Made by a program: the position numbers and the translations under genes | Notes under the pieces: generated by a model | Told to the model about the DNA's origin: nothing | Seen by the model: the letters and a program-made list of their open reading frames with translations, nothing else | Database searches by the model: none | In this document: positions 1-29,345 of the stretch, piece by piece | Position numbering within the stretch: the first letter of the stretch is position 1 | How the letters are laid out: each line of letters starts with the position of its first letter | Assembly: GCA_043228905.1 (NCBI GenBank) | Contig: JBHGNT010000006.1 | Span: forward strand, 1,612,001 to 1,676,000 | Length of the DNA stretch: 64,000 nt | Reading direction: 5' to 3' | From: Azolla caroliniana | Lineage: Eukaryota > Plantae > Polypodiophyta

Positions 1-2683
1 TATTGAAGGTGGGATGTGCTACATTCATCAACCAATTTGTTACATGGGTCCAATCTAAAGTGTGTGAACAAATAAGTTTATAATGGGAGTTATTTAAAGG
101 TCGAGACTTTCTTGGTCATGAGTTAATTCATCTATTATACGAGTGTTTCTTGGCACCATAAGGTCAACGTGCTTTTACGTTAGTGGGAAAATACTTTTAC
201 AATATTTTACAATGTGAGTAACATAAACACGCATAGAGACCAATAAGTATATCATTGAAGGAAGGTAATGTTATAATGATAGGCAACATGTCAACAATAG
301 AGCACAATTGCATGTGACCATATACATGTATATATTATCTACAAGCTAATCATGATCTCCGTTAACAACAACATGTATAGCTAAAGGGGTCACTGATGAT
401 GTTGTTTCGTAAAATTTGGACATTATCAAATTTGCCCAATTCTTGAAAGCTATGTTTCCCAATGTCCTTTGGTCAATGTAGCCTTCACACAGAAACAATG
501 TCAACAAAAAATATATAAAGAGATAGATATAGTTGAGTTGGTAAGGTTTTCCGATGGAGATCAGAAGGTCATGTGTTCAACCCTCCACATTCCAAAGTGG
601 CTTCTAGTAATATGTATGGTGTGAAAAATGACATTTGTCAAAGGGCACTAAGCTCTACAAACATATGACTTTGAATCATGTTGAACTTGTGAAGGTTCAC
701 ACCACTTGCAAGAGGAGAAGTGGGTTGCCTACTACATGTAAGGGGCAAAACACTAAAAGAAGTTTTTAATCCAAGGCAAGAATTTAATTCTATATGATTG
801 TTTTCATAAGCATTCACATAAAAACAATATTTACACTTTACTATCATCAGATTTTTTTTTTGTTGCCTTTCTTAGCCTGTGTGCATGTAAATAGGGTCAT
901 TTTTTATGTTTTGTTCTTCTTGTGTCAAGTTAATTGAAATGAAAGGGATGAGCTCCTACTGGTCATGGATTTGCCATGCAGGATTGTGCATGGGTATGTT
1001 TTGGGCCATGGACATTGGATACTCCTTGGATATGGCATATGTACATTATCTCGCAACCCCTCACTTTAATTGTGCTTAAATAGCTAGGATTTCTTATAAG
1101 GGATTGTAGTAAACCAACTAATCAAATAAGCCCATTTTGTCCTAAAGCTATGGACCTCAATACTTTCGAAAAAAAATTAAATTTTTTTAATGAGCCTTAT
1201 TTTGATGCGGAGCTACAACTTGTTTTCATTTTTACGGTTTTCTTTCTACTAGTGTAGTGAAAATATATTTGGAGATAGTTGATAGTGGTTGCCTTCTTTA
1301 GTAGATAGCTTGTACATAAAAAAAAGGAAGCTCACCAAACTACAAGGAGCACAAAAACCTCACCAATAGGTACTTTAACATGTTCGTGAATGTCTAAGGA
1401 GCACAAACAACTTGCCAACAAAACTCATAAAATTGTTCTCTCATGTGAAATAAGGTTAATATTTAATCTCTAATTCACATCGTTCAAACACTAACACACA
1501 CATGCTTGCAATTACATACGTATATGTGTGTGCATGTTTATAATGGCGAAGGTATTCAAATGCCAATAGTTACCTACATATACATATGTAATTCCATATA
1601 GTGAGTTGTAAGCATCTCTAAGAGCTTGTGACCTTGGAGCTTGGGTACATACGTGAATTTCAGTTTAGATAGACACAATGGATATTTCCATGTGGATAAC
1701 TACTATAAATCCTTCATTGGCATAACCACTTCACAAAAAAGATGTCTGTTTTGAAGAATATGTTGTTTATTGTGATTCAACTATACATAAACCAATTCAC
1801 ATAGACTAAAAGAAGATGATTCCAATTTTGCCATAAATATATGTTGGAATAACCGTTGGAGTTTTGAATTGTGCGTATTCCAACACAAAAGAAGACATTG
1901 ATATGTTCTTCTTCCATTGATTATATATTCTAATGAGATGTTCTAACTTTTCCATTTTCGTTTACGCCCCAATAGAATGACAATATGTGTTCTCAAATAG
2001 GTAAATGGCAAGGTTCACACATTATTCAATCTTATGATAAAACATAAATTTTCTCCAATGACAATCAACGAGAATATATAGGTATTGACAATAAAAATCT
2101 TCAACAAAGATCATACAAGTTACCTTATGAATGTATTCGATATGTCCATCTACAAAGACAATAAATTATTTGGTAATATGTCCTACCAAAAAAAATATGG
2201 CAAGGTTTTACATGCTCAAATTCTTTGCTATTCTCTAAGTTATAATGTAGAAGCTTGTACGTTTTGAGAAAAACAGTAATGTTTCCATCCAAGACTAAAG
2301 GCAGTATAGACATGACTAGTTGTAATTAAGCTTTGCTCATTGTTTAATGTGCCCAAGTTTATGCCCTACATCCTTTCATTTAACAATGTAGCCAGTATTG
2401 TCCACATTAATCAATCATTCCAATGAAAACACAATTCCCGACTAGTAGACTTAGGCCTTGTAGGCTTCACAAATTGCATAGTACGACATTATGATCTAAC
2501 ATATGAGAAAATGTTTCGGATCATATATCAACAAACCCAATTATTCAACAAACAAGGGAGCTAGGTGTTGTGAAAGGCCATACTTCTATTCAACAATTGT
2601 TTATGAGGCCATGTCAGTTGGAAGTTATGGATGTGATTGCATATAACGACGCTTGACGTTATACGTCATATAAACATGGGATG

Positions 2684-3095
2684 TTCGATGGATCTCGTAA
2701 CACGTGACCTAGAAGAATTACTTAGTCATTGCATCACATCAACGATCATCAAAGATGCATAACCTATATTTCGATGGATCTCCTAACGTGCGACATAGTA
2801 GAATTACTCACTCATTGCATCACATGAACGATCATCAAAGACGCATCACATAACCTGGTGGCAAGCAACGACAACGATGGATGAGGAGGATGGGCATGTG
2901 CATCCATCCATCCATCCATTCCCGACCATCATGACAAAGATCCAACCACCATGGGTATGCAAACCCTCACTCATGGCGTCACATCAAGGATCATCAAGAT
3001 CACATGACACCCTTGCCCATTGCATCACATCAAGGAACATCAAAATCCATCCACACCCTCGCCCATTGCATCACATCAAGGATCATCGAGATCAA
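2684..3095. repeat. Imperfect direct repeats with core CATTGCATCACATCAA(G/C)GATCATC, probably a TE/LTR remnant
   Basis: Two ~85-bp copies at ~2684-2765 and ~2770-2856, plus shorter CACATCAAGGA(T/A)CATC cores near 2980, 3020 and 3065. Confidence 0.55.
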
Positions 3096-3561
3096 ACCAC
3101 GGCTGAGCACACTCTCTCACTCTCACTCAGATCATCAACTCGACGTTATTACATAAATACCCTATCTCAAGTGTTGTGTGTGTTGGGGGGGGGGGGGGGG
3201 GGGGGGGCAGGTGAGATGGCCATTGGCATGGGTGCCCAAATTTCTACCATCACCATTTTAGGTCACCGTATTCATGAATCATCATGCATATGATGATGTC
3301 TTCCCCGACTCGATTCAATGGAATGTAGAGCAAGCAGAAACAAAAAAAAGGAAGAAAACACTCTGGGTTCTTCTTATTCATATGACACAATACACACATA
3401 AAAGCACAGGTAGAAAGCCTGAAAATCCATCCATCATGGTAGCAATGAAATCGGGTGACTGATGATCCCCTCCTCATCAGGAAGGAACAAATCGGGAGAC
3501 AGAAGAAGAAGATGATGATGATGATGATGATGCTGATGAAGAAGAAAGAGATGGATCAATG

Positions 3562-4749
3562 TCAGTGCTTGAGGAGTTGAAGGGAGGCCAGCAGGAAAGG
3601 GCCGACCCCTTTTGCGTCGTTGGTGACGACGGCCTCGCTCAGATAGTACTCGTAGGTACCATTGCGGTACGGCGTGCCGCCCAGGCCCCCCACTGAGACG
3701 GTACGGTTGAAATTGATGCCCCCATCCGCCCGTGACTCCACGAACTGCGTCTTCAAACCCTCAAAGCCCCGCTCGTAGACCGCGCGGTACTCCGATTTGG
3801 ACAGGTACCCTTCCCTCACACCCTTTGCGAACCCATACACGAACATGGCGGATGCAGAAGATTCCAGATAGTTCCCTGCACGCCCACCTTGATCCAAAAC
3901 CTCCCACCACACGCCAGTGGCTGGATCTTGCACCTTGGCCACCGCCACCGCTAGCCGCCTTAGGATTGCCTCGAGATCCGCCCTCTTGCCATGGTCTTTC
4001 GGGAAGAAATCGAGGGTATCGACCAGTGCCATGAAGTACCAACCAACCGATCTCCCCCAGAAGCTCGGTGAATGGCCAGTGACCGGATCGGCCCATGCCT
4101 GTTGCCGTGACTCATCATATCCATGGTAAAGCAGCCCGGTTACGGGATCCCGGGCCCTTTTCTCCATCAACACGAATTGCAATGCAATGTCATCGAAGGA
4201 GGGCTTAGGTTCATCTTCAAAGAGGAGGGTATACTCGGCATAGAACGGCTCGGCCATGAAGAGACCATCGAGCCACATCTGGTATGGGTAGACTTGCTTG
4301 TGCCAGAAGCCTCCCTCGGACGTCCGCGGTTGCTTTTGCAACTGGTCTCGGAGAAGCTTGGCCGCGGCCCTGTACTTGGGCAATCCAGTCCTCTTCCACA
4401 AGAAGAGCAAAATCGTGCCCGACCTTATGTTGTCGAGATTGTAGTCAGATTCCTTGTAGGTCGGGATGGTGCCATTGTCTGCGACGTATGTGTCGGTTCG
4501 ATTCTTTATGTAATCGAGATACTTGGGTTCTCGGGTCTTTCGCCACACTTGTTGGATTCCATACAGGAGGACGCCGCGCTCATAGTTCCATTGATCCTTG
4601 CCGGGACCTGTCGAGTTCCAGATATTAAGGGCGGTGTCGGCCATCCGAACATATAACGGCTTCTTGCTGTTACTTCCAGCCTCCGCCATGCATATCCAGG
4701 GAAGCAAGCACAAGAAGGCAGAGACGACCACTATCCGTGAGTTTCTCAT
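3562..4749 (-). CDS. Secreted glycoside hydrolase family 105 (unsaturated rhamnogalacturonyl hydrolase, YteR-like), intronless
   Basis: Uninterrupted ORF. The track start at 4767 is TTG; the first ATG is at 4749 (395 aa). Hydrophobic signal peptide (IVVVSAFLCLLPWICMAEA). GH105 motifs NLDNI, EGGFWHK, QMWLDGLFM (catalytic Asp), LLYHGYDES, FWGRSVGW, YLESSASAM, and C-terminal GVGPFLLA. Confidence 0.92.
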   Translation of the reverse strand: MRNSRIVVVSAFLCLLPWICMAEAGSNSKKPLYVRMADTALNIWNSTGPGKDQWNYERGVLLYGIQQVWRKTREPKYLDYIKNRTDTYVADNGTIPTYKESDYNLDNIRSGTILLFLWKRTGLPKYRAAAKLLRDQLQKQPRTSEGGFWHKQVYPYQMWLDGLFMAEPFYAEYTLLFEDEPKPSFDDIALQFVLMEKRARDPVTGLLYHGYDESRQQAWADPVTGHSPSFWGRSVGWYFMALVDTLDFFPKDHGKRADLEAILRRLAVAVAKVQDPATGVWWEVLDQGGRAGNYLESSASAMFVYGFAKGVREGYLSKSEYRAVYERGFEGLKTQFVESRADGGINFNRTVSVGGLGGTPYRNGTYEYYLSEAVVTNDAKGVGPFLLASLQLLKH

Positions 4750-5493
4750 TGTAGATCCAATCGACAACCCCGATGTTTTAGAGTTTATTGTGTTTTATCT
4801 GGCTTGAATTGTGGTACAACTTTGTACAAAACAAAAGCAAAAGCAAAATACCAACCACCAGCAACAAGATTTGCCGGATGGGGAATGCTGGTTCTAGTAC
4901 TCTTGGAGATCTAGAAGCTTATTATTCAGACTAATCTGTTCACCTCTCATGGGGGTGTGTGTGTGTGTGTGTATGCATAAAGAGAAAGAATTTCAGAGCA
5001 AAAGAAAAGAGAGAGGTGAGATGAGATGACCAGTTCTCTTGGAAATGCTTGGTTTTTAAAAGAAAAGTCAACCAGCAATTTAGCACAAATTTCGTTAGAT
5101 CTCTTCGTTGTTAAATTTAATCCTCTTTTCCACATCTTGGTCTCTGATGCTTTATGTCTCTCACAACAAAAATCCATTTTCTCCTAAGCAACCCGAAATG
5201 CCTCATATTTTTTCAATTGTAAGAGTTGGAGTTTGAAATATATGTCTTTTTCGTTTAATAATGCTATTAAATATTTGAGGGAAGAACATGAGTCTTCATA
5301 GTTGCATTACGTATTTGATTGGTGGGATACTGTAGCATTATATATTTGTGGGATGTGGATCTTATTAGTTATCACATATAATACTATTATATGTTTGTGA
5401 GACGTGGCTCTTCATAGTTACTAGGATCAATCTTAGCCACCATATGTGTGTGTGAGCAAGATGAAAATACAAGTTACCCACTAAGTTATAACC

Positions 5494-5541: not shown

Positions 5542-8086
5542 AAAGGAGGAGGTGGAATATGTATTTTCACATCTTGGAATTGATAAAAGCCCGGGTTGGG
5601 ATGACATTACGAATGAGTTTTTTAAAGCCTTTGTACCATAACTCAAAGCTCCTCTAACAATGATATTCCAAGAAATGTGGAGTTCTAGTAAAATGTCTGA
5701 TTCATGGAAAGTTGGTCTTGTTAAACTACCAAAAGTTGCATCTCCTATATCTTTTGCCCAATGGAGACCAATATCATTAATGGGTGGGATGTATAAGATT
5801 TTTGCCAAAGTAATTGCAAATAGACTTCAAAAGGTGTTGTCGTTTGTGGTCCACCCAATGCAATATGGGTTTATTGAGGGAAGGGACATCTTGCATAATA
5901 TTTTGAATGTGTAAATGGCAGTAGATTATGCAAAGGAATCCAAACAAATTATAATGATACAACTCGACATCGAGAAGGCATATGATCATGTAAGTTGGTC
6001 TTTTATTCCTCAACCTATGTCTCATATGGGTTTTGGGGAAAGGATGTCTCGAATATCATTGTTGGTGGGATTAGGTGCAGTGTCACACATTATGTTAAAT
6101 GGTGGAGTTACTAAGGCAATACTATTGAAAAGATCACTTAGACAAGGATGCCCATTGAGTCCATTATTATTTGCAATTGCAACACACCCGATTTTGGTGA
6201 AGATGCATGAGTTGGCAACTCCTCGAGAAATAGTTGGATTAGCTCTACCATCAGGGAAACAATTGATTGCCCAAGCATTGGCTAATGATTCGTTTTTATT
6301 TCTCAAACCAACACCTGATAACATAGCCAAAGCCATGGAGGTGTGGAATGTGTTCGCATTGGCATTACAATTACATATAAATATGCAGAAGTCGATGCTC
6401 ATTAGAAGCACTAAGAGTGATTTGGTTGATCTTGGATGGAGTGGCCAAATAATAAATCAAGGGAATGTGTGTAGACACTTAGTTTACCCTATTGGTGTTG
6501 ATGTCTCATCATCGCAAAGTTTGAATTGGATATAAGGAACCATTTTGGACAAATTTATGTATTGGAAGTCTCAAGCACGGTCGTTTAGTACTTGTCTCAA
6601 AGTGGTGCAAGCTATAATGATTCCAATTATTTATTATTTTTTGTCATTGTTACCGTGGACAAAGAAATCACTTGATCATTTAGCTCGTTCACTTAAATAT
6701 ACACTATGGAAGAAAGAAACAAACCTTGGTATGAATTAGGGATCATGGAACAATATTTGTACCCCAAAACGGTTAGGGCATGTTGCTTTACTAAATTTAG
6801 AAGATCATATCGTGGCTCGAAGATTCAATCTTTTGAAAGGTATGTGCATAGGTACCCAACCTTGGGTAGAAATAATTACTTATTTTGTCGAAAAGGTTGG
6901 TACTTACTATGGGAAAACGAGAATTACAGCTTTGTGGTGGCATGTGGTTAATAGTACCCGGCAGTTTAAATGTTCAGAATCTATTATGGTTCAACAATTG
7001 GTGCTTTCTTGGCAGCGGTGTTTGAATTTGTTTAATTGGAGGCCTCCTGAGTGCAGAAAAGATATAAATTCATTGGCAGTAGAGGTGTTGGCAGCTTCAA
7101 GGATATTACACTATGATGGAAATGAAAGTATAAATTCACAATTCAATCGAATGGCAAGGCTAGGCTTGGTAAATGTGGAAGATGTTATTTTAGAGTCATG
7201 TAGGAAAATGATGGCCTTTCCAACAATCAGAAATAAGTTTCATATACCACGTGGATATGGGTATATTTGGCAATCAATATTGGCATGCCTAGATTAGTTT
7301 TCCCAATTCCAGAGTTGGTGGTCGAGGAACCATGGAAAGATTGGTCATTTGGTAATGGGAAATCGATTGATGGGGTGCACACTAATGATGTGTACCATAA
7401 GTTGGTTGATGATAGAGCTTGGTTAGCAAATAAGGTTTTGGATACATGGCGCATTACTCAAAATGTGGAGTGGTGGCGTAGAGTTTTAGTTGTAGGGTGG
7501 CAATCTCATCTTCCATTTCGTGCAAAGGTGTTTCTTTGGCGTGCCATAGTTGGTGGGTTGCCTTTGGCGATGGCCTTAAAACGAAGACATATTTCAAATG
7601 GGACATGTTTTTTTCTGTACGGTGGTTGAAGAAGATGCCAGACATAGGTTCATTACATGTTCGGTTGCTAAAGGCATTTGGGTGATTATGTCACAAATTT
7701 GGGCATCGATATCAAGAAATATTTTGTCACCTTATAAATGGGTTTTTATGGATGAGGATAAAGTTATGCCCACACCATCGTATACGGTTGTTTTTTATTA
7801 CCTTAGATATTGGGAAATGTGGTTCAATTGGACCATGAGAAATGGGTTCTTGTTTGATGGACTTCATGGGGTAACACAACAACTCCGTAGGATGAAAGGG
7901 AAATTGATTTGGCAATTTTCACAACTATGTTGTATGGGGACGTTGTCCCAACAGAAGATAGACTTATGTCATCTAGTTTTACAACACTTGAGAGGGTTTC
8001 CCTTGCACTATCACTATTTATGAAGTTGTGACGATAACAAGGGTTGTATTATTATCTTATTTTAATAACAAACATTGATTTACGAA
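5538..8086 (+). mobile_element. 5'-truncated, decayed L1/Tx1-like LINE (RT + zf-RVT)
   Basis: ORF fragments carry KSPGWD, WRPISL, QYGFIEGR, LDIEKAYD, LRQGCPLSPLLF and a degenerate (F)ADD motif (LAND). Zinc finger region FRAKVFLWR...CFFCTVVEEDARHRFITC. Several in-frame stops and frameshifts. Ends TTTACGAAA followed by (GA)n at 8087-8098. Confidence 0.9.
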
Positions 8087-12535: not shown

Positions 12536-15500
12536 TTAGAAAACTAGCAATGAGCGAGCAGATCCTTTCCGCACTCGTTTCCTTCTCTTTTGTTGCATAC
12601 TACGCCATAGACTAATTATGAGAAGGAACCCTGTGAAAAAAAATCAAGCTCTGGTTTTAGGTGCTGTTAAACTTTCTAAGGTATCATAAGTACCCTTTGG
12701 ATCAATAAAACTGAAATATACTAAAAGTGCCCTTAACTGGTTTTCTGGACTCACCAGCAAAACAAAGAAAAATGGGGATAAGCCATTGGACAGCCAATAA
12801 TGCCGATGAATCGAACTGTAAATCAAATAAAGAAATTCTAAGAACTTCAAGAGAGAAAATCTATACATCAATCTCTATGACGTCTCTTACCTCATCGTGG
12901 TGTAGCCATCTAGAAGTCAATCCAATGACATTATTGTCTCTTCGTTCCTCTTGAGCTTTACCAGCTGACTTTTGTTGGTCAGATACTACACCTTCTCTTC
13001 TGATATAATTCATGGTTGTGTCATGAGGAAAACCCACATGCCTTTCTTGGTTTTTCAGCAGCCCATCAATTAAAGTAGTCGAAACTACACCATCACCAAC
13101 AGTGTTATTGGAGAGTACCATAGACATGTCCTCTCTGTTGGGTCTATCACTTCCTTTCGGTTGCCTCTGTCCAGAGCTGAAAGGCAGCTTGATATGCCTT
13201 TCATAACCTTTGGTACCTTGCACCTCAAATCGAGCATCAACACCGCATTGAAGTTCGTGATCAAGAACAAGTGAATACATGGAGAATTTCGCATCTTTCC
13301 TACGAGATGGAGATGAGGATGTCAGCCCATTCAATGGAAAATGTATTCTCTTTGAAGGTGCAAAAAGCACTGGATCTTTCAAATTATGGCTTGTAAAATC
13401 CAGCAACTTTTTGAGCAGCCAATAACAATCAGTCACGAGGTGGCTATTATCAAGACAGTTAGAATCTCCATAGACTGCAACACGGCCTAGACCACGTTCT
13501 ACAGCTCCTAATACTGCAGCCTCTACCTGCGGAAACTTCTCAAATGAGTATGATCATCTCTCACGTGTTGACAAATTCTCTTATTCATATCAGAACTTTA
13601 ACAGAACTTACTTGTGGTTGAGCTGATGTTTGTAATGATGATGAAAGTGAATTTGTTTTTGTTCCATCTTGGAACGTGAATCGATGCAAGAAACCACCAT
13701 CGGGGAAAACCGAGATGTCTGTGCCAGAAGCAAAAAAACCCCTTTGCCCATCAATGGAATAAGGACCAGTAAGTATTGTGCCCCCAAAACCAATACCAAA
13801 TCCAAGAAGAAGATCATTCAATGCAGGGATATTTGCTCCACCAGTCACAGGAGTCCACCAGCTTCGAGTGTTGTCATCAAAAAATTTCATTTTTATCATT
13901 GTTTCAAGATGATACCAATCAGCAAAGACTATCAATCCAAGTCCTAAAACTTTGACATCATTTTCTAGCTTAATTTTTTCCTCTTCAAAATATTCATCTT
14001 CCAGATCTACCATTAGCAATGTCCCATACTGACGAGCATCAAAGCATGTGAATGGAGAACCCAAAATTTCTACATAATATCCAGCATCACATAATATATC
14101 AAACATGCTATGGAAATTTGTGTGAGGATGATCTCCATGCCAATCAAGGATGTCATTTCTAACATCCAATGAATCTCTGGGTATATAACCAGGTGGATAA
14201 CGCACATTATGAAATTGATCCCAAAGAATCCGGCGTTCTCGTTGAGGAGTGGGAATAACATTCACACGAAGATGGAGTGTGCATTCACTTCTCTGCATTT
14301 CTTTTCCTTGTGTTCTTGAAGGTGACACAATTGACAAAGATATATCACCTTCAATTATGCCTGAAAAATTCACCCCTTCATCACGAATCTCCATGTGTAA
14401 TCCTAAGAATCCTGTCCATGGCCAGATGGTATCCGAGAATGTGAATCGAATGTCTAATAGATTACCAGCAATATCAGAAGGATTCCATGTAGGATTTTTC
14501 TCCACATAGCCTACAACACCCATTCCATTCAATATTGTGACATTGAAGACAACAGGCATAGCACCCGCATAAAGGGGTTGCCGACAGAAAGGCCACATGT
14601 AAGGGCAATCAAGAAAATCTATTACTGATGGAACAAGACTTGCTCGGGGTTTGTATTTTACAAGGATTTCATACGATTCCAACCTGACATGACAAAATCA
14701 GGCAGTGAGCCTTGGTGCAGACTTATTGAAGGAAACATTAAAAAGACTTGCACAATGACAAAAAATCAAGAAAATGCTCACAAATTCAACCGCCCGGAAC
14801 CTTGTTCAAAAATATTTGGACCCTCCAACCGAGAAGCTCCCTCAATAATAGCTTGCTTCATGCTGGCTGGATTGATGATATTCCAACGAATGGACTCTGG
14901 AATTACACTGGCAAGCAAACAAACAGCACCTGCCACTACAGGACTCGCCACGCTAGTTCCCGAAAGACTTTTGCAACCAGAGTTTATCCTTGACCCAATG
15001 ATATCTCTTCCGTAAGCTACAATATCTGGTTTTACTCGTCCATACCTAAATCAAGAAATACAGAAATGTTTGCTATTTAGACCATCAAGAAATACACCTC
15101 GATATGGCTGAGAAAATAAACATAAGCAAAGCACTCAATACCCATGAGGAATTTCCCAGGTAGTCATCCCCCGTGATGAGAATGATGCAATATGATCACT
15201 ATAATCAATCCCACCCACACCAATCACGTCACTCTGATCAGCCGGATTATTGAGTGTTCCATAAAGAGGTCCATCATTCCCAATAGCCGATACCATAATG
15301 ACATTATTGGCTGTCATCTCCCATACCTTTATATAACAATTAAAATAACATTATGCAATGAAAAATGCCACTTAGCTATCAAAGCTCTAAAACCTCTGTT
15401 TTCAGACCTATTGATTCCCCTTATAATTAGCTTGTTATCATTTGTTACCGAATATTACCTTTTCAATGAAAGGTCGATCAAGAAAATCCGGTCCACCAAT

Positions 15501-17805
15501 GCTAAGATTAAGGATGTTTATCTCAGTTGCAATTGCATAATTGAAAGCATCTAAAAACCATGATGTGTACGACACCTGCAGAATACTGAAAACAATTCTG
15601 CATTACATAATAAAGAAACTGTCCCAAAAAAAAAAACATGTGATTATCCCACATACAATCCATTAAGAATGTAGGTGCAATCAGCGCTCATTTCACATTC
15701 ACTAGAAGACCGCACAATACCAGAAGAAAGATGAAAAGAAAAGAAAACATTGGAAGATGAACAGCCATGAGATGAGTGGCACAGATGAACATTGACATCA
15801 TTTCATATCAACATAATTCAGATGCTCGAGTGCAATGAGAAGGAAGCAGTAACAAGAAAATATTATCTTACCTGTGCATCCGTGAAAACTCGAAATGCAT
15901 ATATCTCAGCATCGGGGGCAAAACCCAAACATTGAGGATCCTTACTTGAGATCACTCCTGCCACAAAGGTTCCATGTCCTAGATTGTCATTCAATGTATC
16001 TTCATTTGTCCAATTAGTCCTCTCCTACAGTTAGAGGAAAAGAAAAAGAAATAGCGATGCCACATAAATCTTCCATTGTATAACAAGCAAGGTCTTGCTA
16101 ATGACATAAAAGATATAAACAATAATATACACATTGTCACAAGAAATAAAAAGAGGATAATCTGACTCGTTGTGTATAATAACCTATTGATGATGACTGA
16201 ATATATTACACAGAGATCTACAATATGACAAAGAAAAATGCAAACAGATATAACTGTACATTGCACCTATACACAGTACATTAGCCTTCTATGTTCAAAA
16301 TGCAACAATCAACATGAAACATGATACACTTCTCGTGGGTTGCTCACAGCCTCAAACATGTTTCACTTTCCAAGGAAAAGTCCAATCTTCATGTGTACTC
16401 TCACCTTTGGTGCTAATGTTTCATGCAATGCGCATTGATGGTTGGAGATTTAAGAAAAGAGGTTAGAATAGTATACACCAAAGAGAGTTGCAACATGGTA
16501 TGTTATGGCACATCCACATAAAAAAATTTGAGTGTTGAAACCAGATCCATTGAGTAGACTAACAAAATGAAATAAAACCACAATAACATCAACAATATAA
16601 AAGCAAACCAAGCCTACTGATCATGCCACTGCATAGCACATGTCTAATGATCATAACATTACATAGTATAAACATAAATATTTAAATGTGTATACCATGA
16701 GTCTAGTTGAGAGTGCACATAGTACATACCTATCTTCTCTATATTAACAAAATAAAAGAAGTGAAGGCTTAATACTAGAACTTAGACCTTAAGTGTCATG
16801 GGACATTTAATCTAATTTTATTTATGTGCAACATGCGTTGTTGATGCACATAAAAATTATCTCTGAAGTGTCTCAAAGAAACGCTTGCTGTTATATTGAT
16901 TTTTTGCATAAATGAGATATGAAAGCTGGTATCATCAACATTTCTTGATAGAATGATGCAATACCTTAATATTCCTAAAATGTGGATGATCAGCCCTCAC
17001 ACCAGTGTCAAAAACTGCCATCCGAACCTTTGCACCCGTAAAACCTTTGCTCCAAAGCTGGTCAGCCCCAAACATCGACGTTATTTGAGATCTCTGTGAA
17101 AGAAGTAACAAATCAAATCTTAGATTCCAGGTCTTAATTTTATTTCAATTGAAAATAATAAAAAAGACACAAATCATCGCACCACATTTCATAATGGACA
17201 TATCTAGAGAAAACACAAAACGCATATTTCTTGCACTAAAATTAATAAATAGCAACTTCCAATGGCCTGATAAGATTATTTGGAATCAATAGAGTACTTA
17301 ATACCTATGTTTACGCAAAAAGTGGCATTTTATTGACAACAATGCTTGCTGCATACACCAAAATATGTGTGCATACAAATATACATTCACAAATTAATGT
17401 GCATTAATGATGAACTTTCAGTCCCATCCATGAAATGATGTTTTGCTGCTAATATGCCTACCCTCTCCCTCTATCTCAAATTAATAATCTACCCTAGTGG
17501 TAAAGCATCTATAAGAGAGACTGGTTTCCCTATTTCCAAAATTTGTCCTCTTATTTTAGAGCAGGGTTATGCCTTGCAGCTGATATAACAATCTGTGATA
17601 TATTTGAACTCAGTAACACCCCTCAAACCCTATATTAAGAGTACTTAGAGCAGAGATCAACTAAAATCATGCAGTAGCGTGGACCATCTGTCACTGTTAA
17701 ACTCCCTGATTAGCACATTCTGCACAAGGATAAAATCTCTAATGCTCATGTTGTGTTATTGTAGAACCACCTTGGACATCATGATGGATGTTGAATTCAT
17801 ACTTG

Positions 17806-17894
<89 letters not shown>

Positions 17895-18800
17895 TACACA
17901 CAAACACATATGTATGGCTAGGCATAAAGAAGTATTTACTTGCAAAAGGATTTTCCGGCCAGAACTCGAAAGGGATGGCTTCTCACACTGACCCATAAGG
18001 TCACCATCTTCACTCCAAGGTGTGGATCGTTTCCCTTCACTTCGATATTTAGCACTCTCGTCTGAGGAATCATTGCTTTCCATCCCAAAAGATGGCGCGC
18101 TGGAATCTCTTGTGATTTCATCCTCCTTCAGTAAGGCTCTAGTAAACCGAGACTGCCGAGAGATGTCCTTTACAAAATTTAAGGCCTTCAACTGGTTTAC
18201 AACACCATCAATTCCTCTTTCTTTAATCCTGAGCAAACCAAAATCGGTAGGGAATGCTGAGGCTGGATTCACCCGCTCTACCCACTCCCATCCGTCGAAT
18301 TGCTGCATAGATTTTGACAGGGCAATTTGATGTTCGGTTGCATATTTGTAAGATGTAAACCTAACAATCACTTCATTTGAAACCTCCCCATCAAATCTCA
18401 GGGATTCTAGCCCTTCCTTGGAATCCAGAGAACCTGGAGATGATTCCACCCTTTCTCTGGATTCTATGAAACCTGACAAAGAATCTCCGCATTCTTCGGA
18501 ATCTGAGCAACCCGATAATGGTTCTAGCCCTACCACGTAATTGGAGGAAAACGAAGATGAATCTGGCCTTTCCTTATGATATAAGGAAACCAATGAATCT
18601 TCTCCAGCGAAGCAGATGGAGGAGAGCGAATCTGAGAAGATCTTTCTACATAGACCTCCATTGGACAAAGAGATATTCGCGGAAGAGTAGGCGAGGGGCT
18701 CAGACACAGATTGAAGATCGATATGGGATAGACCAGAAACCATGTATGGTTGAAACCCTGAAGAAAAGAGGAGCCAGAGGAGGATCGGAAATACCATCAT
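12536..18800 (-). CDS. SBT6.1: Subtilisin-like site-1 protease (S1P/MBTPS1 ortholog), 10 exons
   Basis: Exons 18800-17940, 17093-16965, 16024-15872, 15575-15459, 15326-15142, 15045-14782, 14683-13612, 13526-12891, 12815-12755, 12630-12536; all GT-AG and in frame. Catalytic triad FDTG / GHGTFVAG / GTSVASP, oxyanion AIGNDG, WDQFHN, C-terminal TM helix and basic tail, N-terminal signal peptide. Confidence 0.95.
17807..17905. repeat. (CT)n(CA)n microsatellite in SBT6.1 intron 1
   Basis: Read directly from the sequence. Confidence 0.95.
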
Positions 18801-18977
18801 AGGCTCTCTGACTGTCTTTTGGGGGGTTCTTCTTGCTTACTCTGAACCATGACTCTGCACTGACTCTTCACAGTCCTGATACCATGGCGGCGGCCCCTTC
18901 CTTAGAGAGGCAGGCAGGCAGCAGAGTAGCATACATACAAAAGACCGATAAGTGTTTGCTTCACATGATATGCTCTC

Positions 18978-22200: not shown

Positions 22201-22778
22201 ACAAACGCAAAAGTCATTGTTTTAAGACTTTAACAATTCCATAAAATGGTTGGGCAATGGTGTGACAAAAGAGCTCTAAAGTCGAGCATGTCCATCATAT
22301 TGAGTTTGTGAGGCACGCAAACACATAAGTCTAACAAAGACACATATAACTCAGGGCCATAAAGTTTCGTGGATATGCCACTGGAGCACAGAGGTATGCC
22401 TTTCGCGCGAGACAAGTGTAGTGCAACACAATGGGAAGAAGAGAAGGAAGCCAATACACGAAGGGTGGGACGGACAACTCTAGGATTGTCCTATAGAGCC
22501 AACCATTTGTATATGGCAGGAGAAAAGCTAAAGCCTATGTATATTGATTGGGTGGGCATTGGGAAAGAGAGAGAGAGAGAGAGAGAGCCAAAGGAACAGA
22601 ACACAAAGGAACAGAGCAGGTCCCAATTGTATTTGTATTTGGGAAAACAACATCTGCATATCATATGTACATAAATATCCTCTGCACAGCTTCCTTACCA
22701 TGGATCCTCTTTCTCCACCCACTAGTCCCATGGATGCTTCTTCGTAACCCTAAAATTCCACCAACACATGGTTAGATA

Positions 22779-25700
22779 ATGGCTGCTCCAAAGTCTTCTC
22801 TCTCTCAAAACCATATGCTTGCCTCTTCTTCGTCTTCTTCTTCCCCTGCTCCTGCAGCAGCAGCTGGAGAGTACCTACTTCAATTGCTTCAGAAGGGACA
22901 TGTTTCTTCTTCAGAGGTTCGTAATACAGACTCCATCCTTGTCAAAGAGCACCACAGATCTCTGGAAGAAGAAGAGCAATACTCACGGCATGTTCTCCAG
23001 CAAGACCCTGCCGTGGCTGCCATGGGCCCTTGCCATAGCCATAGCCTTCGGTGGCGCCTCAGTGATGAGGTCATTGATGGCGATAGAACAGGGCTCTTGC
23101 CTGTACAAGATCTTCAGCATGGCTGTGGCCGTGTCCAATATCATCAGTATGAACACCATCATCAATACGAACACCGTCGTCAACAACATCAACATCAACA
23201 ACAGCATCGACCACAACCTCAGCTACATCAACATCAACAACATCATCAGGGTTCCCTTCATTTTCCAGGTACTCCCCCATCTCTGTTTCCCGAACTTTTC
23301 ACGACTTCCCACATGGATCCCCTTTTGGGCCGTCCACCCCCTACTTCAACGCAGAATCAGTTCTTTGGCCCTTATCCATACCGTCCAGTAGATCATCATT
23401 CTTATGTGCAGATGCCCCCTCCAGGATTTGGACAATCTGGTTTGATGAATTCTAATTCATCTTTTGTGCACCCTGGACATAACGTGGTATCCATATTATC
23501 ACATACAGGGGTTGAGAATCCAAAACAACATGACGATTTTCTGAATAAACAGATTCTTTCTCATAAAAGCGTCCAAGATGCGAATCCTCCTGTTGTGGCA
23601 CCGGAGAGAGTTTTGTTTCAGCAAGGAGAACAGCAATTCTATACTCAATTTGGGTCCGTTGGTGTCAAAATTGCTCAGAAGGATTGTGTTAAAGAAGAGA
23701 CAGACATGTTATTGCCCAGTGCATCTTTTCCTAAGAAACCCATCAAATCAGATGAATCAATGAAACTAACCTCAATCTCAAAAGCGAGTCTTGCAAAGGG
23801 CTATGGACCCATTGGTCCAGTGAGGTTGGAAGAAGACCAAATTTGTCAAAATACTGAGGGAGCCCCAAGTAATCAGCTCTCTCATCAACATGTGTTGCAT
23901 CCTACTGTTGCAAAATATCATGATAAGTCATTCAATTTGATAGAAAGTATGGCAAAGTTGTCAAAGAGGCCTGATTTACATGCATATGGATTCAGTAATG
24001 TGCAAAAGGATGCAACACTTCTAGCATCTGATAATCTAGATTCTGCTAATTTTTTAAATTCGAGTGATTTTTTAGACACTTCCGAGAAACTGCAGTTGAA
24101 ACAGAGATATAGTCAGATAGCTCAGGATGGGAAGACAACTACAGGGAATGGCTTGCTTGACTGGACTGCTATAACTCATGGTAAAAGAGATGAAGATAGG
24201 GAGAGTGAAACAATACGATTCATGGGAACTCAGGAAGAACTTCCTATCAGGGTCAACCGTGATATTCAAAAGCAAAGAGGACAATCCGTAAGCTGGAGGT
24301 TGAAGCATTCAAATGCTTCCGAGCCATCCAAGGATCAAGTGAATCATAACAGTAGATTAAGAAACAAGTCTCTGATTCAAGATAACCATGTAGGGTTACC
24401 TTCTGATTCTAGAGTCAATGCTGCACCCGACTATGCTGCAAATAAATCCAAGCAAGCTTTACTCACTTCACTGCTGGTTGATGATCAAGGAACTGTCAAT
24501 GATGGGAACAATGATGAAACAATCTTGGGATGTATTGAGTTTTTAGAACTTTGTAAAGATAATGTATCAGAAGAACATATCCAACAGGCTCCTCCTTCTA
24601 AGGTAACATGATTATGAAAGGAATGTCAGATTGAAAAGAATGCCCATGTTTCTTTGTAACATTAACATTCGGGTTTATAGGATTTGAAACAGGTTAGGCA
24701 ACCAAATAGTAGGGTTTCCATGCTGCCCAAATTCATCCGAAGAGAATTTATCAGTCGAGCTGACTCGGAGAAATGCACTAGACAGTTTCTTTCCATTTTT
24801 CAAACATTGATACCACCTGTAGATGAGGAAATAAGAAGAAAGAAACTTCTTTCAACTCTGAAAGAACTTGTGTCAGGAATTTGGCCTGATGCTCAACTCT
24901 ATTTATTTGGGTCTTGTGCTAACGCATTTGGGGTATGTAATAGTGACATTGATATATGTCTTTCCATTGAATCTGAAGATTCAAACAAAGCTAAAGTGGT
25001 TCGCAAGTTAGCGGACATTCTCGAAGAAAATGATATGCAGAATGTTCAGGTTCATATTAACCCTTCGATAAAATGATGCCATTTACAGTATTTCTTATAA
25101 TGCTTCTAACAACAATATGACTTTGGAAGGCCTTTTAAGTTTGTAGTACCTTATAATTGAGCATATTTTTAATTTGCAGGCATTAACTCATGCAAGGGTT
25201 CCTATTGTGAAGTACTCAGATCCAAAAACTGGGATATCTTGTGACGTGTGTGTTAATAATATGCTTGCTGTTGTGAATACAAAGCTGCTACGTGATTATG
25301 CTCAGATTGATGTCCGACTTCGTCAGCTAGCTTTCCTGGTGAAACATTGGGCCAAATGTCGTCAAGTGAATGAGACATACCGGGGAACACTCTCTAGCTA
25401 TGCGTAAGTTTCCTACATGATTCTGTTTAAACACAATGATATTTTACTTGAGATGATGTTATTCTTCTCATCAAGTTACTTCATTACATTTCACCTTTGA
25501 ATTTTACTTACGTTTTAAATTTGCATTTATATTTGATAACCAAAATTCCTTGCTAATTTTTTCACGGATGATAATGTACTGAAGCTTTATGTAGCAAGAA
25601 TAAATAATGACAATGTGTGGGGAATTCAACTTAGCTTATGCAATTGATGGTTTTGCTTGACATCCTGGATGTGTATGTTTGTTTCTGACACAGAGACATG

Positions 25701-28700
25701 TATTGCACACACTAAGATGTATGCCATTTAGTTTATACATGATGAAATTGATGATCATTAGGTACTCGATAGGTGAATTTACACTTCTAGCTTGCGCATT
25801 GGTGGCATGCTTTAATTTTAGGGAGGGTATGTGCATGGGTAATATGAAATAGAATGTTTTTTATTAAATTGCTTACATTTATGATATTTTATATGAACAT
25901 ACATAGAAGGTTACCAAGAAGAAAGCTGTAAAGTGGACATGAACTAAAAGTAGTTATACTTGCAATAAATTTTGTGGAAATAGATATACATGAAAAATAT
26001 GTTTTGTGACATTGATGTGAATTTGGACCAAATTCTTTGGAAACTTTTTTAGATAATAGTGTTAAGTATAATGAGAGAGGAGAATTCTTTTCTTTGGGAT
26101 TTTAATCTATGAGACATCCTTTTTAAATTTGAAGTTTCAATTTGTATTCATCTTCTTACAAATGATGCTTATTTATACTGTTGGATAACATCAGATGCAT
26201 TATCAATATTTGACATGGGTGATGGTTTATGTTTTTGCAGCTATGTCTTAATGTGTATACATTTTCTCCAACAAAGAAAACCTCCTGTGCTACCATGTCT
26301 TCAGGTACTAGTATTGTTTGACAATGCAATATATCTGTATGCTCTGCTGTGTATGTGCAATTTGGTGGATTGTTTTTGCATAGGCCCCTTTTTGGCAGAA
26401 TATTAATCATGGATGTCTAAAGTTATTCTGCATAATTTCAGAGAACAATACTGATATATTATTCTGAAGTCATTATAATAGGAAATAGCTTTGGGTTGGC
26501 ACTGAGACTGGACAGTTGTATGATGGAAATTCTTCTCTCTTCTTTTCAAGGACGGAGCCTTTTCTATGCATGGTTATTAATCTCAGCCGATTTTGCAAAC
26601 TTATATTATAAAGAGATGAAATTGAGCCATGAAACGTGCACTGCTAGCATTCTAAATTTTTTAACATATTAATTTGGCTCATCGGCATCTAGGGAGAAAG
26701 CAAGATATATCAACATCTCTAAAAGACGAGAAAGCCTATGAGACCTGATAAAGGTTGCAGCTGTTTTATTTTAAGTTGTTGACGTGAGTAACAAAAGAAA
26801 AACTAAAGAAAAATATCTGTCTACGCTAGATTCCTAACTCTAAATGGTGTGAAATGCAATCATGAATAACCACCAATCTTCTTTGATGCCCGATCATTGG
26901 AGCTGAAATTGTTGCCCTATGAGAATATCCATCAGGAGCTGATCTAATATGGATGCAATTAAGTCGGCGATGTCTTTCTACTGTAGGTTCCTAAAACTAA
27001 ATGGTTTGAAACGTCAGTAACAAACAATCAGGCAATGCAAATATCCAATGATCCAATATGGTATGCAATTAAGTCATCAAAGCAAGTAATGGAACGAAAA
27101 CAAAAACATCTTTTTTATTAAATGGTTTGAAACGTAATAACCAACAATCAGGTTTGGTGCTTGATCATTTGAACTGATATTCCTGCCCCTGAAAATATGC
27201 ATCTGGGGTGATCAAATATGGTATGCACTTGGGATTGTGGTCCTGATTGGTGCTCATGATGTCCATAACAAAGAACAATGATGCTAGGCGTCAGGCCTCC
27301 ACTTTCGCATCATGAATATTTGCTTGTACATCATGAATTTCCCTAGTAGTGTCCGTACAAAAGAAATCTATCAAAGTTCTCTGCTTAGGTGAGTCTATGA
27401 GTGTGAATCTCTCCTTCAAGGGGCCCTTCTTTGCAACCTTATCCCTACAAGGAAGGATAATAAGCCTCTTTGGTCATTGTACTCCATCACTCTACGGAGA
27501 GGTTCAAATCCTTCTCTGAAGAGAGACAATAATATTTTTCTTTGGTCTCATAGTGGGCAATGAAGTCCATAATGCTCCCCAAATTAAACTCGCGATTGCA
27601 AAGCATGCAGGCAGGGTTCTCGAAAGCTGTTTATATTTTCCGGTCTTTATCTTCAATTGATGGGATGATGTTTGGACCTGCCCTACTACTGTATGAAGGA
27701 CATGGGACATCTGTGCCTCCGTATACTTGACTTGAATAATGAAAAATTCTGGGACGAATGTGAATATTTCTGAATACTAACAATTGGTTTCATGTTCCCC
27801 TTCTAGTTGTATGAATTTATGTTCTCTACTAGCTTCCCACTAAATAGTTATCAAGGATCCATTCTATTTACCCATCTCTGAGATGTATTAAATATCATAG
27901 CGTTGTCCTACTACTGCCCCTCTCCTAGATCTTAGTTGATGTAATTAGAATATTCATTGAGCATTTTGCTCATTTACATCACATCTACATGTCCATTTAT
28001 ATCATGTGCCATACATATTTTGAATGTTTAGTTTCAAGGGATACTCTCTCTTTCTCCATGCATGCATCATTTGCTTCTGTTGCTTGAGTTTGCATGCTCA
28101 TTTATATGTGCATTTTATTATTATCATGACCGTATATCCTGTAGGTTTAGATTTAGCCCTTGCCCAACTTTTTGTATGTGTGACTAAATTGAGTCACACA
28201 TATTAGAAACCACAAGATTAACCTTAGCACATAATGATGGGCATGATATCCCTTATTTTTAATCTGAGCTACCTCATTCAATATTTCTCAACTTTTGTGT
28301 TCTGTCAGTCAAATTTATGCTTTGGAAAAAACCATGGCAATAGCACTAGATCCAAGCTATTTCTTTCTCTTGTCTAGTGCAACGAGATCGCATTTTGGAT
28401 ATGTTTGAATAAGAGAATGAAAATTTGAGTTGGCTTAGAAGTTTGAGATATTGTCACATCTCTCTGTTGCATCTTTAAACATAGCTTTTGCAATCTTGGA
28501 AAAATGACTGTGTATACTTTTGACATTATGGCCTGAAATATGAAGACTGAAATGTTTTCCAAAGCATCATGATTCCTGAATGAATATTTGTTGATTTCTC
28601 ATGTTTTTGACTTTTTACTGCAACAGAAAATGGAACCTACATTTCAGCAAACTGTAGGACACATAAAATGTGCGTATTTTGATAGAGTTGAAAGTCTGAA

Positions 28701-29345
28701 AGGTTTTGGCCAGAAAAACAAGGAGAGCCTAGCAGATTTGCTAACATCGTTCTTCGAATACTGGGCTTTTGGGCATGATTATAGTCACTCAGTGATTTCG
28801 ATAAGAACAGGGAGATTCTTAAGGTGGCTTTCCTCTTATCAATCTTTTCATTTTATACGTCATGTCTTCTAGTTTTCATTACATTCTTATTTTTTCGGAA
28901 ATTTACTGAATACTGAAGTATTTTCAAATTTTGAAAAATACCCTCCCAAAACATCCTTCCTCTCTCTACAATGTGATTTCTCTCTACATAGAGAGGCAGA
29001 AAGTGTAGATAGCAGGTGGGCATTTTGATAAACTATTCCTTATCTTATTCTCAATGCATTGTTATTTTATTTTTCTTCGATGTTTATGCATCGTTATTCA
29101 GTAAAGCGGAAAAGGACTGGACTCGACGCATTGGAAATGAAAGACATTTGATATGTATTGAAGACCCATTTGAGATTTCTCATGACTTAGGCCGCGTAGT
29201 TGACAAGTATAGCATTCGTGCTTTGCGTGAAGAGTTCCAACGAGCTGCAAGAATCATGCGGGATACTGAACCTTGGGTTAGACTCTTCAAGCCTTTTGTA
29301 AGACAACAGGTGGAGGATGATGCTTTGGAAAATCAAACTATTTAA
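22779..29345 (+). CDS. URT1: UTP:RNA uridylyltransferase 1 (TUTase), 6 exons
   Basis: Exons 22779-24602, 24681-25049, 25180-25403, 26241-26304, 28627-28823, 29102-29345. Nucleotidyltransferase motifs [40 protein letters not shown]-associated [21 protein letters not shown]1-type N-terminal motifs GEYLLQLL and DPAVAAMGP. Confidence 0.93.
26860..27230. repeat. Imperfect internal duplications in URT1 intron 4
   Basis: GATCATT..GCTGA.AT...GATC.AATATGG.ATGCA and AAATGGTTTGAAACGT...AACAATCAGG each recur 2-3 times. Confidence 0.55.
27480..27790 (-). mobile_element. Decayed LINE ORF2 C-terminal fragment
   Basis: [18 protein letters not shown] is homologous to [18 protein letters not shown] at ~35770. 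Confidence 0.6.

What the first reader, a model, noticed from the sequence alone, without database searches (positions are those of the whole stretch)
3562..4749. Bacterial-type GH105 pectin-degrading enzyme domesticated in a plant genome (candidate HGT)
Seen: an intronless ORF clearly richer in GC than its AT-rich flanks and than the neighbouring spliced genes. It sits among plant TEs and microsatellites, with a (GAT)n tract just past the stop. Known: GH105 enzymes such as Bacillus YteR remove the unsaturated uronate left on rhamnogalacturonan-I by lyases, and the family is mainly bacterial and fungal. The catalytic motif WLDGLFM is intact. Inference: a horizontally acquired gene giving the plant an apoplastic enzyme that works downstream of its own or a microbe's RG-I lyases, for wall remodelling or processing of pectin-derived signals.
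Basis: partly seen in the sequence, partly recalled or inferred. Interest (0 to 1): 0.8.

Follow-up and report, generated by a model that had tools for sequence, protein, structure and literature searches.

The report
Fern pectin enzyme from ancient transfer
This is a real, expressed fern gene for a predicted secreted pectin-trimming enzyme that early land plants likely took from a soil bacterium and that mosses, liverworts, clubmosses and ferns still carry; the transfer is already in print, with a fungal donor proposed.

Summary
The ORF is real: minus strand, 395 aa, intronless, one match in the genome, transcribed and joined to plant flanks. It is a YteR-type GH105 (PF07470) with all nine YteR active-site residues, a predicted signal peptide and five N-glycosylation sequons.

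It is not a private acquisition of this genome. Orthologues occur in ferns (73-77% identity), liverworts, a lycophyte, mosses and a hornwort transcript, forming one clade (100/97). The transfer therefore dates to early land plants. El Mahboubi et al. (PNAS 2026, PMC12890914) already reported it, as 'GH88', with a fungal donor. The high GC is not an HGT signal: 12 of 16 native long-exon stretches tested have GC3 of 0.66 or more, against 0.69 here.

An all-eukaryote clade is rejected (p 0.009). Chara carries a copy from another bacterial lineage. Bacterial gene context points to homogalacturonan as much as RG-I. No activity was assayed. Modest interest.

The parts
3562..4749 (-). Intronless GH105 (PF07470) gene, 395 aa, YteR-type unsaturated uronyl hydrolase
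   Evidence: Pfam E 4.6e-104; PDB 4wu0 E 2.3e-109, YteR 1nc5 E 5.7e-81; Foldseek TM 0.80-0.83 to 4wu0/2gh4/1nc5; one match in G000
4678..4749 (-). Predicted signal peptide, residues 1-24 (basic start, hydrophobic core, A-x-A before the likely cut)
   Evidence: hydropathy peak 3.16 at residues 6-16, no later stretch above 1.7, no ER-retention C-terminus; judged by eye, no SignalP run
4255..4275 (-). WLDGLFM motif; Asp161 aligns to the catalytic Asp143 of YteR
   Evidence: alignment to 1nc5 and to the D143N chain 2gh4; residue list from PMC4528949
3658..3690 (-). Long gate loop, residues 354-364, of the bacterial CA_C0359 type rather than the short YteR/fungal type
   Evidence: low pLDDT there
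3366..5021 (-). Approximate transcribed span, including untranslated flanks
   Evidence: contigs of guessed-RNA runs X3, X7, X10 cover about this span and not 2500-3300 or 5046-5447, while DNA run X4 covers all 30 bins; contigs give no exact ends or strand
3511..3539 (.). (GAT)9.7 microsatellite in the 3' untranslated flank
5660..6532 (+). Degenerate LINE-like reverse transcriptase fragments upstream of the gene (context)
   Evidence: PF00078 E 6e-7 and 7e-15; summed contig depth near or above 1000 in DNA runs
12861..18836 (-). Neighbouring spliced site-1 protease (MBTPS1-like) gene, used as host and RNA control (context)
   Evidence: PF23001, PF23094, PF23090; GT-AG joints in runs X8, X11, X14

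Best explanation
The ORF is an expressed, intronless fern nuclear gene for a GH105 hydrolase that belongs to one clade shared by ferns, a lycophyte, liverworts, mosses and a hornwort, and that early land plants likely acquired once from a soil bacterium; the protein is predicted to be secreted and would trim lyase-cut pectin fragments in the cell wall. Mechanism, inferred from YteR: Asp161, with His209 holding the water, hydrates the C4=C5 double bond of the unsaturated galacturonate that pectate or RG-I lyases leave at the non-reducing end. [quoted passage not shown] The likely substrates are unsaturated oligogalacturonides at least as much as RG-I oligomers, made by the plant's own PL1/PL4 lyases or by pathogens. 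Shown: gene, expression, family, active site, plant-wide clade. Inferred: bacterial donor, secretion, substrate, role in wall turnover and infection response.
For: Nine of nine YteR active-site residues (list from PMC4528949) are invariant in 18 of 18 plant rows. The top hits are plants: Adiantum 77%, Pteridium 75%, Ceratopteris 73%, Riccia 67%, Marchantia 66%, Nothoceros 66%, Diphasiastrum 62-64%, mosses 55-59%. In the careful IQ-TREE PMSF tree of 47 hand-picked rows, the 15 plant rows are one clade (100/97) and the window protein is sister to three other ferns (100/99). The plants' sister is a bacterial clade with Pyrinomonadaceae, Terracidiphilus and Chitinophagaceae rows (91/90; next node 96/88), and the 7 fungal rows lie elsewhere. 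The FastTree of 494 rows agrees on the plant clade (0.99) and places the fungi far off, but supports the sister link weakly (0.62; next node 0.97). Window-protein identity has a median of 61% to 11 named Pyrinomonadaceae rows against 44% (maximum 48%) to 122 fungal rows. The long gate loop is in 7 of 7 plant and 13 of 13 bacterial rows and in 0 of 10 fungal rows. An all-eukaryote clade is rejected (p-AU 0.009; 0.003). Sequons average 3.9 in 19 plant rows against 0.4 in 17 near bacterial rows. The own genome has two multi-exon PL4 loci and 18 PL1 matches. CE8, GH28 or PL10 lie next to the GH105 in 8 of 19 bacterial loci scanned, an RG-lyase family in 0 of 19, and two close relatives are fused to pectinesterase or GH28. 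The Marchantia gene is marked 'up' at 2-4 dpi with Phytophthora palmivora and drives an enrichment among genes up at 3 dpi with Colletotrichum.
Against: The AU test does not reject plants+fungi as one clade (delta lnL 10.4, p 0.276 under PMSF; 38.4, p 0.085 under LG fast search), so the published fungal donor stands as a live rival. The fungal rows were ascomycetes plus unnamed fungus-like rows; no named basidiomycete, early-diverging fungus or oomycete was included, although oomycetes have GH105. The link to the bacterial sister clade is not starred (91/90). The plant topology conflicts with the species tree: mosses branch first and the lycophyte joins liverworts, and the species-tree constraint is rejected (p 0.004, LG fast search), so hidden paralogy or two entries are possible. 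The closest assayed relative found, YteR (38%), acts on RG-I disaccharide. GH28 includes rhamnogalacturonases (recalled), and most context loci are Flavobacteriaceae outside the sister clade. The Marchantia enrichment rests on 1 gene of 1.
Confidence: 0.65

Rival explanations
1. Same plant gene and function, but the donor was a fungus, as proposed by El Mahboubi et al. from a FastTree phylogeny.
For: Published proposal; plants+fungi is not rejected by AU; fungal GH105s are already secreted, signal-peptide proteins.
Against: All five unconstrained trees built here keep the fungi apart from plants. Identity to fungi is at most 49% against 56-61% medians to Pyrinomonadaceae for five plant queries. 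Sampled fungi lack the long gate loop (10 of 10), and 9 of 10 carry a one-residue insertion before the PxQMW motif that plants lack.
Confidence: 0.2
2. Two separate transfers from related bacteria, one into mosses and one into the line of liverworts, hornworts, lycophytes and ferns (or one entry followed by plant-to-plant transfer or ancient duplication with differential loss).
For: A deep split between mosses (100/100) and all other plants (100/100), with a short common stem of 0.14; species-tree constraint rejected, p 0.004; different N-terminal motifs in the two groups.
Against: Plant monophyly is 100/97 and was found in 100% of 200 bootstrap trees; the rejection came from a fast LG search that can over-reject.
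Confidence: 0.1
3. An old eukaryotic gene inherited vertically and lost many times, with no transfer into plants.
For: GH105 occurs in fungi, oomycetes, Chara and non-seed plants.
Against: Plants+fungi+Chara is rejected, p-AU 0.009 and 0.003; Chara groups with a different bacterial protein at 100/99.
Confidence: 0.04
4. Bacterial contamination or an assembly chimera, or a recent transfer private to this genome.
For: Intronless and GC-rich; no listed contig bridges the 3' microsatellite, where the tool skips repeats.
Against: The nearest relatives are fern proteins. A DNA contig from another study runs from 4256 inside the ORF to 5489 in AT-rich flank, and contig depth over the ORF (9-15) is of the same order as the unique flanks (13-21). 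A related organism's RNA contig covers 4223-5228. Runs that show spliced host mRNA also hold the gene. Native long-exon genes are equally GC3-rich.
Confidence: 0.01

Closest known systems
Marchantia polymorpha Mp3g19320 and the 'GH88' (PF07470) family of non-seed plants (El Mahboubi et al., PNAS 2026, PMC12890914; preprint 10.1101/2024.12.20.629586)
   Same: Same Pfam family and PANTHER label (unsaturated rhamnogalacturonan hydrolase); a Marchantia PF07470 protein (MARPO_0049s0102, P0012) is 66% identical and in the same clade; same reported range (mosses, liverworts, lycophytes, ferns, not seed plants); same inferred date of transfer.
   Different: The paper proposes a fungal donor and reports absence from hornworts; here trees favour bacteria and a Nothoceros transcript falls in the clade. 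The paper calls it GH88; by structure and sequence it is GH105. That P0012 is Mp3g19320 was not confirmed by an ID table; it is inferred from the family having one gene in the CA accession.
Bacillus subtilis YteR (GH105, PDB 1nc5, 2gh4)
   Same: Fold (TM 0.80), all nine active-site residues, 38% identity in the structural alignment.
   Different: YteR is described as intracellular and has the short gate loop; the plant protein has a predicted signal peptide, five sequons and the long loop.
Clostridium acetobutylicum CA_C0359 (GH105, PDB 4wu0)
   Same: Best PDB match (E 2.3e-109, 47%, TM 0.83); shares the long gate loop.
   Different: Its substrate was only docked in the passages read; no signal peptide is seen in the aligned part.
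GH105 enzymes acting on homogalacturonan fragments (Bacteroides BT4108; Paenibacillus YteR/YteZ)
   Same: Same family; their pectin-esterase/GH28/lyase context resembles that of the plant clade's bacterial relatives.
   Different: Their sequences were not compared here, so orthology to them is untested.
CAZy GH88 unsaturated glucuronyl hydrolases (UGL)
   Same: Same barrel and hydration chemistry; share the Pfam name.
   Different: Only 12-15% identity and TM about 0.6; GH88 lacks the gate loop.

Membership tests
CAZy GH105 (YteR type) | Sequence similarity to GH105 members over the full catalytic domain | tested here: met
   PF07470 E 4.6e-104; 4wu0 E 2.3e-109, 1nc5 E 5.7e-81
CAZy GH105 (YteR type) | Six-hairpin (alpha/alpha)6 barrel | tested here: met
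   AlphaFold2 model pLDDT 77.9, pTM 0.83; Foldseek top three 4wu0, 2gh4, 1nc5, TM 0.80-0.83
CAZy GH105 (YteR type) | Active-site set Tyr41, Asp88, His132, Trp141, Asp143, Met147, His189, Trp211, Trp217 | tested here: met
   Y56, D106, H150, W159, D161, M165, H209, W231, W237; 18 of 18 plant rows each
CAZy GH105 (YteR type) | Gate loop over the pocket, absent in GH88 | tested here: met
   residues 354-364 align to the loop of 4wu0 and YteR; the loop is poorly modelled
CAZy GH105 (YteR type) | Hydrolysis of unsaturated uronate from lyase products | not testable with these tools
   needs an enzyme assay
CAZy GH88 (UGL) | Close similarity to UGL and no gate loop | tested here: not met
   12-15% identity, E 5e-7 or weaker in Foldseek; loop present
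Land-plant PF07470 clade (Mp3g19320 family) | Groups with moss, liverwort, lycophyte and fern members | tested here: met
   100/97 for plants, 100/99 for ferns
Horizontally acquired plant gene | Physically part of the host genome and expressed | tested here: met
   G000 contig C6 among spliced genes and TEs; contigs bridging the 5' junction; RNA runs; 3' junction not bridged by a listed contig
Horizontally acquired plant gene | Nested among donor-lineage sequences, vertical eukaryotic descent rejected | tested here: met
   bacterial sister in ML trees; all-eukaryote clade rejected
Horizontally acquired plant gene | Donor lineage identified | tested here: inconclusive
   bacteria favoured, fungi not rejected by AU
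Recent lineage-specific HGT | Restricted to this lineage, with atypical composition | tested here: not met
   orthologues across non-seed plants; GC3 like native long-exon genes

The most novel reading that the evidence does not exclude
Streptophytes captured this bacterial pectin-catabolic enzyme twice: Chara from one bacterial lineage, and the first land plants from an Acidobacteria-like soil bacterium, not a fungus. The land-plant copy was refitted as a secreted glycoprotein, kept by all non-seed lineages including hornworts and lost in seed plants. It edits the unsaturated ends of lyase-made oligogalacturonides, giving seed-free plants a way to tune pectin danger signals that flowering plants lack.
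Probability: 0.2. Interest if true: 0.6.

Novelty: new member of a known kind. Interest (0 to 1): 0.3.

Why it matters
The gene itself is an expected fern orthologue of a family whose transfer into early land plants is already published. What remains of value is three things. The donor appears bacterial rather than fungal. Hornworts and, independently, Chara may also carry the enzyme. No assay of a plant GH105 turned up in the searches made here. If it works as predicted, seed-free plants have a pectin-processing step in the wall that seed plants lost, and this can be tested in Marchantia, where the family appears to have one gene.

Tried and rejected
GC content as HGT evidence: rejected. 12 of 16 native long-exon stretches (6 LHC, 10 dirigent; several dirigents are near-duplicates, and only the best-scoring 6 of 19 and 10 of 71 matches were measured) have GC3 of 0.66-0.91, against 0.69 here. 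Contamination: rejected. NCBIfam gave only BglB, far below its cut-off (107 of 420 bits). The ESM Atlas returned only bacterial PF07470 clusters and added nothing. Earlier scan findings: none by sequence or words. Yue et al. 2012 (PMC3493653; table passages and supplement passages seen) lists moss glycoside hydrolases from bacteria but none named family 88/105; one entry (GI 168052263) could not be mapped to a family. Ma et al. 2022 (Mol Plant) is not held, so it may list this transfer too. The Zygnema genome supplements have no GH105/GH88 string. The careful tree of 73 rows did not finish; only the quick tree is reported from it. Contig depths cannot rank expression and were not used for that. 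About 20 short PL4 matches to profile positions 20-74 look like dispersed copies of one fragment and were not counted as genes. No complex prediction was run.

Full report
Observation. The ORF runs from 4749 to 3562 on the minus strand and encodes 395 aa. GC is 0.556 against 0.36 in both flanks, and GC3 is 0.69 against 0.27-0.43 in five in-frame exons of neighbouring spliced genes; a sixth exon was read out of frame and is left out. The (GAT)9.7 tract at 3511-3539 and the other microsatellites are there. LINE-like fragments start at 5660, a copia element lies at 44.5-48.6 kb, and the neighbours are spliced plant genes: site-1 protease, a nucleotidyltransferase and a JmjC gene. The whole genome (523 Mb) gives one match, the window itself.

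Family. Pfam PF07470 scores E 4.6e-104; this model is named GH88 but also covers GH105. The best PDB sequences are the GH105 enzymes CA_C0359 (4wu0) and YteR. The AlphaFold2 model (pLDDT 77.9) matches 4wu0, 2gh4 and 1nc5 at TM 0.80-0.83, while true GH88 structures give only 12-15% identity. Germane et al. (PMC4528949; passages read) list nine YteR active-site residues. All nine map onto the window protein and are invariant in 18 of 18 plant rows. The N-terminus looks like a signal peptide by hydropathy (no SignalP was available) and there are five sequons. Plant rows average 3.9 sequons (n 19) and near bacterial rows 0.4 (n 17), which fits adaptation to the secretory pathway.

A real, expressed host gene. 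Eight public runs were laid, of 24 listed; all are contigs. A DNA run from a study other than the possible source has one contig from 4256, inside the ORF, to 5489 in AT-rich flank, and similar depth over ORF and unique flanks. Guessed-RNA runs X3, X7 and X10 cover about 3366-5021 and not the flanks beside it. X8, X11 and X14 show GT-AG joints in the neighbouring protease gene, so they contain spliced mRNA; they also cover the GH105 gene with no joint inside it. X14, from a different organism label, carries the ORF with its 5' flank to 5228. The 3' junction is not bridged by a listed piece, because the tool skips the microsatellite.

Distribution. The top hits among the best 120 of 7,914 are plants: Adiantum 77%, Pteridium 75%, Ceratopteris 73%, Riccia 67%, Marchantia 66%, the hornwort Nothoceros 66%, Diphasiastrum 62-64% and mosses 55-59%. 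The first named bacteria are Pyrinomonadaceae at 58-62%. A profile search with 18 plant rows added unnamed moss-like rows and no named seed plant or alga among the best 120 of 7,863; unnamed rows could hide other taxa. The window protein is sister to Pteridium, Adiantum and Ceratopteris, so the host is a fern.

Already in print. El Mahboubi et al. (PMC12890914; passages, Fig. [quoted passage not shown] From a FastTree they suggest a transfer from fungi to the land-plant ancestor. Their gene Mp3g19320 is PF07470, is marked up at 2-4 dpi with Phytophthora palmivora, and drives an enrichment at 3 dpi with Colletotrichum that rests on 1 gene of 1.

Donor. I collected ascomycete GH105s with a Podospora query, 150 broad representatives and 45 named bacterial loci. 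Of 693 sequences, 494 covered at least 280 profile positions and went into FastTree: plants were one clade (0.99), next to Acidobacteria-type rows (0.62; next node 0.97), with fungi far away. A careful PMSF tree of 47 rows picked by hand from these gave plants 100/97, a bacterial sister clade at 91/90 (next node 96/88), fungi 100/99 elsewhere, and Chara with a different bacterial-type protein at 100/99. Identities (median 61% vs 44%) and the gate loop (7 of 7 plant and 13 of 13 bacterial rows long, 0 of 10 fungal rows) point the same way. Against this reading: plants+fungi is not rejected (p-AU 0.276; 0.085), and no named early-diverging fungus, basidiomycete or oomycete was sampled. An all-eukaryote clade is rejected (p 0.009; 0.003), so some transfer is needed. 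Inside plants, mosses split first and the lycophyte joins liverworts; the species-tree constraint was rejected in a fast LG search (p 0.004), which leaves ancient duplication or two entries open.

GC is no evidence. Among 16 native long-exon stretches from the same genome, 12 have GC3 of 0.66-0.91, with flanks at 0.31-0.43 GC.

How it likely works. [quoted passage not shown] The host has candidate upstream lyases: two multi-exon PL4 loci and 18 PL1 matches. The substrate is open. YteR takes the RG-I disaccharide, but Paenibacillus YteR/YteZ (PMC7267202, passages) and Bacteroides BT4108 (review PMC8002723, passages) act on unsaturated oligogalacturonides. In 19 of the 45 bacterial loci, scanned with selected ORFs only, CE8 was found in 7, GH28 in 4, PL10 in 2 (any of these in 8) and an RG-lyase family in none. 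Two close relatives are fused to pectinesterase or GH28. I therefore lean to homogalacturonan fragments, perhaps both. A role in shaping pectin-derived danger signals is inference from the Marchantia expression data and from search listings on oligogalacturonide DAMPs (listings only).

Verdict. This is the fern orthologue of a known, anciently transferred family: a new member of a known kind, interest 0.3. The worthwhile leads are the donor, the hornwort and Chara copies, and the lack of any assay in the searches made (Ma et al. 2022 not held).

Noticed in passing
P0216 (Chara braunii GBG82933.1, CBR_g36460, on a 1.45 Mb contig): A Chara GH105 groups with an unnamed bacterial-type protein (P0191) at 100/99 and shares its N-terminal signature, not with land plants; plants+Chara has p-AU 0.023 (LG fast search). 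Possibly an independent acquisition, or contamination.
   Followed up: partly
P0010 (Nothoceros aenigmaticus transcript, EukProt): A hornwort member falls inside the plant clade, against the published 'not in hornworts'; a transcriptome contaminant is not excluded.
   Followed up: partly
P0020, P0031, P0053, P0146 (Physcomitrium); P0007, P0016 (Ceratopteris); P0013, P0014, P0018 (Diphasiastrum): The family has expanded to at least four copies in Physcomitrium, three in Diphasiastrum and two adjacent loci in Ceratopteris, while this genome gives one match.
   Followed up: no
window 12861-18836 (-): Spliced site-1 protease (MBTPS1-like) gene.
   Followed up: partly
window 22776-29345 (+): Spliced terminal nucleotidyltransferase gene (URT1-like by recall) with a long Q/H-rich first exon.
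   Followed up: no
window 44139-49339: Copia element with an intact 1373-codon gag-pol frame (44523-48644, -) and matching flanking sequence at about 44.1 and 49.0 kb, so probably a young insertion.
   Followed up: no
window 54550-55053 (+): Exon of a JmjC-domain gene.
   Followed up: no
window 2684-3094: Two short tandem arrays (periods 86 and 46) downstream of the GH105 gene.
   Followed up: no
G000, L049-L054 and about 15 further places: Many dispersed near-identical fragments match only positions 20-74 of the RG-lyase profile PF06045, as if a repeat carries a captured PL4 exon.
   Followed up: partly
G000 C1, C2, C3, C9 (L067-L076): 71 dirigent-domain matches, many in tandem arrays.
   Followed up: no
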